From Escherichia coli (GTDB lineage Bacteria > Pseudomonadota > Gammaproteobacteria > Enterobacterales > Enterobacteriaceae), in the NCBI RefSeq assembly GCF_003334815.1, contig NZ_QOWO01000093.1: a stretch of 1,796 nt of DNA. One strand, 5' to 3'. The notes beneath the pieces were generated by a model. It did not search any database. It was not told where the DNA came from and saw nothing but the letters and a program-made list of their open reading frames with translations. Below are positions 1,515-1,604 of the stretch, in pieces. Both the position numbers and the translations under genes were made by a program. The first letter of the stretch is position 1. Every line of letters starts with the position of its first letter.

Positions 1515-1604
1515 TGTACGAAATGTTCCGGCCGTCCGATAACCGTTTGGCTTACTTCCGTACATTCCCTTGCGTAGATGTACAGAATTGTACGATTTCG
1601 GACA
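1515..1604. promoter_or_regulatory. Cluster of TGTAC[A/G] core motifs and TGTNCGAAAT / CGTCCGATAA-like half-sites inside the miniature element; possible recombinase (res-like) or other protein-binding site
   Basis: TGTACG at 1515-1520, CGTACA at 1559-1564 (inverted), TGTACA at 1579-1584 and TGTACG at 1589-1594, all within about 80 bp. TGTACGAAAT (1515-1524) is an imperfect inverted match to ATTTCGGACA (1595-1604), and CGTCCGATAA lies at 1533-1542. The function is inferred only. Confidence 0.3.

What the first reader, a model, noticed from the sequence alone, without database searches (positions are those of the whole stretch)
1515..1604. Dense cluster of TGTAC[A/G] motifs and paired half-sites inside the element: candidate res-like recombination or binding site
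Four TGTAC[A/G] hexamers occur within about 80 bp (1515, 1559 inverted, 1579, 1589), together with imperfectly inverted TGTACGAAAT (1515-1524) and ATTTCGGACA (1595-1604), and CGTCCGATAA (1533-1542). Serine resolvases of Tn3-family transposons bind inverted half-sites beginning TGTC/TGTA, as recalled. The miniature element may therefore retain a resolution site, which would let it take part in resolvase-mediated recombination and cointegrate resolution. That is relevant to plasmid multimer resolution next to a par locus.
Basis: partly seen in the sequence, partly recalled or inferred. Interest (0 to 1): 0.4.

Follow-up and report, generated by a model that had tools for sequence, protein, structure and literature searches.

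The report
Resolution site inside a miniature transposon
The motif cluster is a leftover recombination ("res") site, inherited from an arsenic-resistance-type Tn3-family transposon, inside a 286-bp gene-less mobile element that sits unannotated on thousands of enterobacterial plasmids; it is a new example of a known kind of element, not a new mechanism.

Summary
Four TGTAC[A/G] hexamers lie at 1515, 1559, 1579 and 1589, and no shuffle out of 5000 gave such a cluster.

The cluster sits in a 286-bp Tn3-derived miniature element (TIME, 1419-1704) on an IncI1 plasmid. Autonomous transposons with the same terminal repeats exist: the Tn2503 lineage, with divergent tnpA and tnpR. Their tnpA-tnpR intergenic res aligns colinearly with the minus strand of window 1501-1604.
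- Site I is 26 bp (1579-1604), followed by a 14-bp spacer.
- Site II is 32 bp (1533-1564).
- Site III is two direct half-sites (1502-1526).

The alignment is significant (z 6-13). Alignments to the Tn21, TnAs3, Tn2, TIME244 and IS101 res sites are not.

Five half-sites are as conserved among diverged copies as the terminal repeats (0.83 against 0.64 for the rest of the interior, p 0.0003). One related element switches from 90% to 51% identity at the centre of site I, as a resolvase crossover would leave.

The host plasmid has one copy and no cognate resolvase. Any activity therefore needs the enzyme in trans, and the link to the par locus is incidental.

Function is inferred, not shown. This is a new member of a known kind; IS101 and TIME244 are the precedents.

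The parts
1419..1456 (+). Terminal inverted repeat of the miniature element (38-bp core, GGGGTCCGCTTGG...ACGCTAAG). In the parent layout this is the end beyond tnpR and the cargo.
   Evidence: Inverted repeat I1. It is 89% identical to both ends of Tn2503. Mean pairwise conservation among diverged copies is 0.86.
1457..1500 (.). 44-bp interior remnant between the left terminal repeat and res site III. It shows no match to the parent transposons.
   Evidence: Alignable among all miniature copies, which points to a single origin, but only 0.67 conserved.
1502..1526 (-). res site III region (the tnpR-proximal site in the parents). It holds two half-sites in direct orientation, 13 bp apart. TGTACGAAATGT (1515-1526) is strong. 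TGAACGTAAAGG (1502-1513) has decayed.
   Evidence: Colinear with CGTACATCCTTTTCGTACAG of the parents. With a matrix built from the parents only, the two half-sites rank 2 and 6 in the window. Conservation is 0.86 and 0.69.
1533..1564 (-). res site II, 32 bp, with inverted half-sites CGTCCGATAACC (1533-1544, + strand) and TGTACGGAAGTA (1553-1564, - strand).
   Evidence: Same length and position as the parental TGTCCGAAAG..N12..TTTCGTACA. Parent-matrix ranks are 8 and 4. Conservation is 0.80 and 0.83.
1565..1578 (.). 14-bp spacer between site II and site I.
   Evidence: Same length as in all parents but free to vary. Conservation is 0.41, the lowest in the element.
1579..1604 (-). res site I, 26 bp, the predicted crossover site. 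On the minus strand it reads TGTCCGAAATCG-TA-CAATTCTGTACA. The central dinucleotide TA is at 1591-1592.
   Evidence: Aligns with the parental TGACCGAAACCG-GT-CGGTTTCGTACA next to the tnpA start. Parent-matrix ranks are 1 and 5. The identity switch in locus L139 falls at its centre.
1605..1666 (.). 62-bp interior remnant between site I and the right terminal repeat. It occupies the place of tnpA.
   Evidence: Together with the right half of site I and the right terminal repeat, about 93% identical to a tnpR-res-62 bp-IR element in L139. Conservation among copies is 0.60.
1667..1704 (-). Terminal inverted repeat, the tnpA-side end in the parent layout.
   Evidence: Inverted repeat I1. It matches the Tn2503 ends; homology runs about 10-17 bp beyond the 38-bp core, in line with the 53-bp repeats reported for Tn2503.

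Best explanation
Window 1501-1604 is the resolution site (res) of a Tn3-family transposon of the Tn2503 lineage. Literature relates Tn2503 to Tn2502 and Tn2501. The site survives inside a 286-bp non-autonomous derivative (a TIME, 1419-1704) that has lost tnpA, tnpR and cargo.

Proposed mechanism:
- A transposase supplied in trans by a resident Tn2503-like transposon acts on the 38-bp terminal repeats. It makes a cointegrate that carries two direct copies of the element.
- The matching serine resolvase, also supplied in trans, binds half-sites of the type TGT(A/C)CGAAA. These are arranged as site I (26 bp), site II (32 bp) and site III.
- The resolvase synapses the two copies and exchanges strands at the centre of site I (TA, 1591-1592), which resolves the cointegrate.
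- The same reaction can delete or invert DNA between two copies, or swap arms with a full transposon.

Shown here: homology and colinearity with the parental res, selective conservation of the half-sites, and a mosaic breakpoint at site I.

Inferred: that a resolvase still binds and recombines this copy.
For: - Autonomous transposons with the same terminal 15-mer were found (L058, L120, L022, L132, and Tn2503 = L146). They carry a 994-aa Tn3-family transposase (NF033527, 1213 bits) and a divergent serine recombinase.
- Their tnpA-tnpR intergenic region aligns without gaps to the minus strand of 1501-1604, with identical subsite and spacer lengths.
- Local alignment scores are 18-27, against 9.6 +/- 1.3 for 1000 dinucleotide shuffles. 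None of the shuffles reached the observed score.
- A position matrix built only from parental half-sites ranks the six predicted half-sites 1, 2, 4, 5, 6 and 8 among all positions of the window on both strands.
- Five diverged copies of the element are about 70-80% identical overall. Among them the five strong half-sites are 0.83 conserved, like the terminal repeats (0.78-0.86). The rest of the interior is 0.64 and the I-II spacer is 0.41. The permutation p is 0.0003.
- Locus L139 is 37/41 identical to the element on the terminal-repeat side of the site I centre and 52/102 on the tnpR side. On the tnpR side it is 83/105 identical to a parent.
- The element family has transposed. A copy in an IncN plasmid has a perfect AACGTA target duplication, and a 3.4-kb cargo element with the same ends has TATTA.
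- The Tn2503 paper places res between the divergent genes, with three dyad regions (PMC3316555). The res of Tn2501 is cited as experimentally studied.
Against: - There is no binding or recombination data for this sequence.
- Identity to the parental res is only about 63%.
- The tnpR-proximal half-site has decayed (TGAACGTAAAGG; 0.69 conserved). The right half of site I has 4 of 12 mismatches to the parental consensus.
- The central dinucleotide (TA) differs from the parents (GT or AC) and varies among lineages (AA, AG). Exchange with a parental res would therefore be mismatched.
- The host plasmid has a single copy and no cognate resolvase. Its only resolvase is a Tn21-subgroup type, 33% identical.
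- Most copies, including this one (TAATA / TATCA), lack target duplications. That fits recombination but equally fits other rearrangements.
- The conservation could partly reflect gene conversion from full transposons rather than selection on the miniature element.
Confidence: 0.72

Rival explanations
1. The sequence is a dead relic. It descends from a res site but is no longer recognised or recombined. The element depends on RecA or on nothing at all, and the motifs are fading homology.
For: - The outer half-site of site III has decayed.
- The tnpR promoter -10 (TATAAT in the parents) is lost.
- The right half of site I is weak (score 7.4).
- There is no cognate resolvase on the plasmid.
- Copy L010 has an 11-bp deletion inside site II, and L009 has a 3-bp insertion.
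Against: - Across lineages about 70% identical, five half-sites stay as conserved as the transposase-binding terminal repeats. The spacers drift to 0.41 while keeping their length.
- The mosaic breakpoint at the site I centre in L139 indicates that a crossover took place.
Confidence: 0.2
2. The site is a plasmid maintenance function. It was recruited next to parAB to resolve IncI1 plasmid multimers.
For: One res per monomer would suffice for multimer resolution if a resolvase were present. The element lies 113 bp downstream of the par operon.
Against: - The plasmid encodes no cognate resolvase.
- The same element occurs in many unrelated contexts: IncF, IncN, IncK, and next to colicin V genes.
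- Here its right flank is the interior of a 196-aa ORF that is intact in other IncI plasmids. It therefore marks a deletion junction, not a conserved backbone site.
- Other IncI plasmids carry a site-specific integrase in the neighbouring backbone.
Confidence: 0.04
3. The motif cluster is a chance cluster, or some other kind of signal such as a promoter, a small ORF or a structured RNA.
For: ORFs of 58 aa (minus strand) and 43 aa (plus strand) overlap the region.
Against: - No shuffle out of 5000 reproduced the cluster.
- There was no Rfam match and no promoter- or terminator-like site.
- Indels of 1, 3 and 11 bp among copies break both reading frames.
- The colinear homology to a known res explains the pattern.
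Confidence: 0.03

Closest known systems
res of Tn2503 (literature relates it to Tn2502 and Tn2501). These are Tn3-family transposons of Yersinia and E. coli with divergent tnpA and tnpR.
   Same: - The terminal repeats are 89% identical to the Tn2503 ends.
- The order is the same: site I next to the tnpA side, site III next to the tnpR side.
- The geometry is the same: 26-bp site I, 14-bp spacer, 32-bp site II, then two direct half-sites 13 bp apart.
- The half-site motif is the same, TGT(A/C)CGAAA.
   Different: - The window is only about 63% identical across res.
- It has no tnpA, tnpR or cargo.
- The TATAAT between sites II and III is lost.
- The outermost half-site has decayed.
- The central dinucleotide is TA rather than GT or AC.

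I could not obtain the sequence of Tn2501 itself. Its relationship rests on the Tn2503 paper.
IS101 of pSC101, a 209-bp TIME with a functional gamma-delta-type res
   Same: It is the same kind of object: a gene-less Tn3-family miniature element that keeps a res and depends on transposase and resolvase supplied in trans (PMC13367494).
   Different: There is no sequence similarity in the interior (score 9 against 9.7 in shuffles). It derives from a different parent lineage (Tn3 subgroup) and uses a different resolvase (about 31% identical).
TIME244, a 244-bp TIME with a putative Tn21-type res
   Same: It is a miniature element of Enterobacteriaceae plasmids with a res inferred by homology. Its terminal repeats are of the Tn21-like type. 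IS5075 and IS4321, which (from my own knowledge) target Tn21-type ends, also insert in this element's ends.
   Different: The interior shows no similarity (z 0.6). The TIME244 res aligns with Tn21 (z 13.8), but this element's does not (z -1.1).
Tn3 / gamma-delta res
   Same: It has the same three-subsite logic and a very similar half-site. The left half of Tn2 site I, CGTACGAAATGT, differs at one base from window 1515-1526. Crossover occurs at a central TA/AT.
   Different: The geometry differs. As read from the Tn2 sequence, the sites are 28, 34 and 25 bp with 22- and 5-bp spacers. There is no significant alignment (z 1.6). The resolvase is only 31% identical.
DNA invertase crossover sites (gix/hix/pix) and the PinR/PinQ recombinases of the Rac and Qin prophages
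   Same: The lineage's resolvase is 72-84% identical to PinR/PinQ. Its best solved relatives are Gin invertases. Site I is 26 bp (12+2+12), the size I recall for invertase sites. That recollection is a lead, not a test.
   Different: Invertases use an enhancer and Fis, not accessory sites II and III. PinQ is reported to invert the e14 P segment at unrelated repeats.

Membership tests
Tn3-family res site (three-subsite target of a small serine resolvase) | Lies inside a Tn3-family element, between its terminal inverted repeats | tested here: met
   The 38-bp repeats at 1419-1456 and 1667-1704 are 89% identical to the Tn2503 ends.
Tn3-family res site (three-subsite target of a small serine resolvase) | Homologous and colinear with the region next to tnpR in autonomous relatives | tested here: met
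   Ungapped alignment to the tnpA-tnpR intergenic region of five transposons. z is 6-13, and no shuffle out of 1000 reached the score.
Tn3-family res site (three-subsite target of a small serine resolvase) | Three subsites, each a pair of half-sites, at fixed spacing | tested here: inconclusive
   Sites I (26 bp) and II (32 bp) are clear inverted pairs. Site III is two direct half-sites, one of them decayed. The parents show the same arrangement, so it is family-typical, but the site III boundaries are not defined by experiment.
Tn3-family res site (three-subsite target of a small serine resolvase) | Cognate resolvase gene adjacent | tested here: not met
   There is no tnpR in the element or anywhere on the 117.8-kb plasmid. 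The only resolvase is a Tn21-subgroup type, 33% identical. This is expected for a miniature derivative and does not argue against res ancestry.
Tn3-family res site (three-subsite target of a small serine resolvase) | Bound by the resolvase and recombined at the centre of site I | not testable with these tools
   Only indirect evidence is available: half-site conservation and the identity switch at the site I centre in L139.
   Score 8 against 9.5 +/- 1.3 in shuffles for Tn21 and for a TnAs3-type element. The positive control, TIME244 against Tn21, gives z 13.8.
TIME (Tn3-derived inverted-repeat miniature element) | 50-500 bp, Tn3-family terminal repeats, no transposase | tested here: met
   The element is 286 bp. 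No ORF is conserved, because indels break the frames.
TIME (Tn3-derived inverted-repeat miniature element) | Flanked by 5-bp (sometimes 6-bp) target duplications | tested here: not met
   This copy has TAATA on the left and TATCA on the right. A diverged copy in an IncN plasmid does have AACGTA on both sides, and a cargo element with the same ends has TATTA. The family therefore transposes, but this copy has been rearranged.
TIME (Tn3-derived inverted-repeat miniature element) | Copies in many unrelated sites, and an autonomous relative that could supply the transposase | tested here: met
   More than 2000 PLSDB plasmids of several Inc groups carry it, as do 1364 of 5426 complete E. coli genomes. 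Autonomous relatives were found.

The most novel reading that the evidence does not exclude
The orphan res sites on these plasmid-borne miniature elements may be substrates for the chromosomal prophage recombinases PinR and PinQ.

- PinR/PinQ are 72-84% identical to the transposon lineage's resolvase, with a near-identical C-terminal helix (..SRQTILR..).
- A megablast match to the resolvase gene, mostly chromosomal at 80-90% identity and annotated pinQ/pinR or 'recombinase family protein' in the rows shown, is present in about half of complete E. coli genomes.
- PinQ was recently reported to be catalytically active.

If this holds, an E. coli host would itself resolve, delete or invert plasmid DNA between such elements, with no transposon present.
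Probability: 0.12. Interest if true: 0.7.

Novelty: new member of a known kind. Interest (0 to 1): 0.4.

Why it matters
**Prevalence.** The element is unannotated in every record I looked at. I found no mention of it in the papers I could search. Yet a quarter of complete E. coli genomes hold at least part of it, and a tenth hold a full-length copy. That is more than the four described enterobacterial TIMEs together (3.5% of genomes).

**What a retained res would do.** The element could finish replicative transposition cleanly. It would also act as a portable recombination hotspot: two copies can delete or invert the DNA between them, and a copy can swap arms with a full transposon. Either would help explain mosaic plasmid regions and junctions without target duplications.

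**Practical points.**
- Annotation pipelines and studies of resistance-gene context miss this element.
- A published colicin V PCR primer anneals in its terminal repeat.

Tried and rejected
- **Other known TIMEs.** I compared the element with the four TIMEs listed for Enterobacteriaceae (TIME244, IS101, IMU, MITESen1; sequences from PMC13367494, Table S2). It is none of them, and the interiors are unrelated.
Direct alignment to the region upstream of tnpR in Tn21, a TnAs3-type element and Tn2 was not significant.
- **RNA and transcription signals.** The Rfam search and the promoter/terminator scans found nothing.
- **Parent transposon among weak plasmid hits.** Inspecting these gave only further non-autonomous elements. 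The parent was found only by scanning species genomes with the terminal 15-mer.
- **Empty site.** I searched for a precise empty site in IncI plasmids and found none. The two flanks are not contiguous elsewhere.
- **Truncated copies.** I checked whether the truncated classes (1-88, 1-206, 93-286, 172-286) mark res-targeted insertions by Tn402/Tn5053-type elements. They do not.
  - The common 172-286 class is a fusion to a gamma-delta-like terminal repeat or to an IS101-like element at a shared GTACG.
  - The others are plain junctions.
- **tnpA remnant.** I asked whether the 62-bp arm is a recognisable remnant of tnpA. There was no tblastn match.

Full report
**Context of the window**

The window is 100% identical to an IncI1-type plasmid of E. 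coli ECOR 3, NZ_LT985321.1. It contains the following features:
- the 3' end of a Y-family polymerase gene (4-153);
- an array of 8-bp repeats (about 174-260);
- parA (381-1007) and a small parB-like gene (1004-1306);
- a second 8-bp repeat array (1308-1358);
- a 286-bp element (1419-1704) bounded by imperfect inverted repeats that begin GGGGTCCGCTTGG and end ACGCTAAG, the signature of Tn3-family ends.

The finding lies in the interior of this element.

**Checking the observation**

They are the only TGTACR sites in the window. In 5000 dinucleotide-preserving shuffles, none had four sites within 80 bp.

**What the element is**

The element is widespread.
- Megablast finds it or parts of it in 2162 of 72,556 PLSDB plasmids.
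- It occurs in 1364 of 5426 complete E. coli genomes, 540 of them with a full-length copy. Of the 1662 places, 1631 are on plasmids.
- No record I inspected annotates it.
- Copies sit in IncI, IncF, IncN and IncK backbones and next to colicin genes.
- Diverged copies (69-80% identical) exist in plasmids and in other Enterobacterales.

It is therefore a Tn3-derived inverted-repeat miniature element (TIME). A 2026 survey lists four TIMEs in Enterobacteriaceae: TIME244, IS101, IMU and MITESen1. This element is none of them, and its interior is unrelated to theirs. A search of the paper library for its terminal sequence returned only a colicin V PCR primer.

**Finding the parent transposon**

I scanned one genome per species with the terminal 15-mer GGGGTCCGCTTGGAA. 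This returned autonomous transposons in Pantoea, Photorhabdus, Erwinia and others.
- They carry a 994-aa Tn3-family transposase (NF033527, 1213 bits).
- They carry a divergently transcribed small serine recombinase.
- The same lineage is common on enterobacterial plasmids.
- It includes Tn2503, the 6.77-kb arsenic-resistance transposon of Yersinia pestis Java 9. Tn2503's ends are 89% identical to the ends of this element.

The paper describing Tn2503 relates it to Tn2502 and Tn2501. [quoted passage not shown] The res of Tn2501 is cited as experimentally studied.

**The central result: colinearity with the parental res**

The tnpA-tnpR intergenic region of these transposons aligns, without gaps, to the minus strand of window 1501-1604. 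Reading from the tnpA side:

| Feature | Parents | Window (minus strand) | Length |
|---|---|---|---|
| Site I | TGACCGAAACCG-GT-CGGTTTCGTACA | TGTCCGAAATCG-TA-CAATTCTGTACA (1604-1579) | 26 bp |
| Spacer | variable sequence | variable sequence | 14 bp in all |
| Site II | TGTCCGAAAG..N12..TTTCGTACA | TGTACGGAAGTA..N8..GGTTATCGGACG (1564-1533) | 32 bp |
| Site III | TTCGTACA twice in direct orientation, 13 bp apart, just upstream of the tnpR start | 1526-1502, same arrangement | about 25 bp |

- Local alignment scores against the parents are 18-27. A thousand dinucleotide shuffles of the interior gave 9.6 +/- 1.3, and none reached the observed score.
- A position matrix built only from the parental half-sites, scanned over both strands of the whole window, ranks the six predicted half-sites 1, 2, 4, 5, 6 and 8.
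The regions upstream of tnpR in Tn21, a TnAs3-type element and Tn2 give z of -1.1, -1.2 and 1.6. The positive controls work: TIME244 against Tn21 gives z 13.8, and IS101 against Tn2 gives z 7.3.
The left half of Tn2 site I, CGTACGAAATGT, differs at one base from window 1515-1526.

**Is the site still under constraint?**

Five copies that have diverged to about 70-80% identity share both deletion junctions, so they descend from one ancestral miniature element. Mean pairwise conservation among them is shown below.

| Region | Conservation |
|---|---|
| Five strong half-sites | 0.83 |
| Terminal repeats | 0.78-0.86 |
| Remaining interior | 0.64 |
| Spacer between sites I and II (length unchanged) | 0.41 |

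Random placement of five 10-bp blocks reaches 0.83 in 0.03% of trials. The tnpR-proximal half-site is weaker (0.69). The TATAAT that lies between sites II and III in the parents is lost, as expected once there is no tnpR to transcribe.

**A trace of recombination at site I**

Locus L139, on an E. coli IncK plasmid, carries tnpR, a parental-type res, then the same 62-bp arm and terminal repeat as the miniature element.
- On the terminal-repeat side of the site I centre it is 37/41 identical to the window.
- On the tnpR side it is 52/102 identical to the window but 83/105 identical to a parent.

An abrupt switch at the centre of site I is what a resolvase crossover between two different res sites leaves behind. 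The Tn3-family literature uses the same argument for hybrid transposons. This is indirect evidence and rests on a single example.

**This particular copy**

- The host plasmid has one copy of the element.
- It has no resolvase of the matching type. Its only resolvase is a Tn21-subgroup enzyme, 33% identical.
- It has two Tn21-subgroup transposase genes, one full-length and one truncated, 56-61% identical to the parental transposase.
- The flanks are TAATA and TATCA, so there is no target duplication.
- The right flank is the interior of a 196-aa ORF that is intact in other IncI and IncF plasmids.

The element therefore borders a deletion. Its position next to par is an accident of rearrangement, and I found nothing to support a role in multimer resolution of this plasmid. 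Elsewhere the family has clearly transposed: an IncN copy has AACGTA on both sides, and a 3.4-kb sulP-uspA element with the same ends has TATTA.

**Mechanism and confidence**

That the sequence is a res by descent is close to certain. That it still works is an inference from conservation and from the L139 mosaic.

Evidence against current function:
- the decayed outer half-site;
- the weak right half of site I;
- central dinucleotides that differ between lineages (TA, AA, AG, GT, AC);
- copies with an 11-bp deletion or a 3-bp insertion in site II.

Overall I put 0.72 on a res that is still a substrate for a Tn2503-type resolvase supplied in trans. I put about 0.2 on an inactive relic.

**An unexpected lead**

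The lineage's resolvase gene gives megablast matches in 2808 of 5426 complete E. coli genomes. Most are chromosomal, at 80-90% identity, and annotated pinQ/pinR or 'recombinase family protein' in the rows shown.
- The proteins are 72% (Tn2503) to 84% (L139) identical. The C-terminal DNA-binding helix is nearly the same.
- The region just upstream of pinR and pinQ retains a decayed copy of the site III region.
- A 2025 paper reports that PinQ is an active recombinase that inverts the e14 P segment.

Whether these host enzymes act on the plasmid-borne orphan res sites is untested. It is the most novel reading the evidence leaves open.

**Verdict**

The object is a new, very common and so far unnamed member of a known kind. 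IS101 is the experimentally proven precedent for a TIME that keeps its res, and TIME244 is a computational one.

Noticed in passing
window 174-260 and 1308-1358: Two arrays of 8-bp direct repeats (TTGTTATC / TTATTATC) bracket the parA-parB operon, with roughly ten units upstream and six downstream. They are probably the partition (centromere-like) sites of this par system. Other IncI plasmids differ from the window by indels in this region (matches split into 2-5 pieces).
   Followed up: no
window 279-301 and 341-371: Two perfect palindromes share the arm TTAACAACTTA (11+1+11 bp and 15+1+15 bp). They lie just upstream of parA and look like operator sites for par autoregulation (repeats I10 and I17).
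   Followed up: no
window 1705-1796; L134 2096-2686: The DNA to the right of the element is the 3' part of a 196-aa ORF that is intact in other IncI and IncF plasmids. The element therefore marks a deletion junction and has no target duplication (TAATA / TATCA).
   Followed up: partly
L148 2181-3091 and L149 2181-3091 (E. coli chromosome, Rac and Qin prophages): PinR and PinQ are 72-84% identical in protein to the resolvase of the Tn2503 lineage. The region upstream of pinR/pinQ keeps a decayed copy of the site III region. PinQ is reported as an active recombinase (PMC12529663).
   Followed up: partly
window 1685-1704 (terminal repeat); PMC12456677 Table 1: A published colicin V PCR reverse primer, CCGTTTTCCAAGCGGACCCC, lies in the terminal repeat of this element family. 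Copies sit next to cvi/cvaC in L007 and L010. The primer's last 15 bases match window 1690-1704 exactly, so it could prime on any plasmid carrying the element.
   Followed up: no
L006 8001-11400; L003 4001-4748; L007 8001-12816: Other gene-carrying, transposase-less elements are bounded by the same terminal repeats.
- A 3.4-kb sulP-uspA unit has a perfect TATTA duplication.
- A 748-bp unit has the same site III-II-I block and a 122-aa ORF where tnpA would be.
- A 4.8-kb unit lies next to the colicin V genes.
   Followed up: partly
L137 2990-3115; L138 2880-3115: The abundant '172-286' partial hits are hybrids. The right 115 bp of the element is fused, at a shared GTACG, to a gamma-delta-like terminal repeat (downstream of pemK in many IncF plasmids) or to an IS101-like element.
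   Followed up: partly
L002 2930-3934; L132 9497-10501; L139 1211-2215: IS5075 / IS4321 are inserted in or beside the terminal repeats of this family. From my own knowledge these elements target Tn21-type ends, which fits the Tn21-like character of the repeats.
   Followed up: no
L014-L025 (Photorhabdus cinerea DSM 19724 contigs): Many contigs of this draft genome end about 112-127 bp inside an element with the same terminal repeat. This suggests a high-copy expansion of a related element in that chromosome. One copy interrupts a tnpR gene.
   Followed up: no
L142 8940-9001: Just upstream of a truncated copy in an IncFII plasmid lie fragments of a MITESen1-like terminal repeat and a second fragment of this family's repeat. 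This looks like a local pile-up of miniature-element insertions.
   Followed up: no
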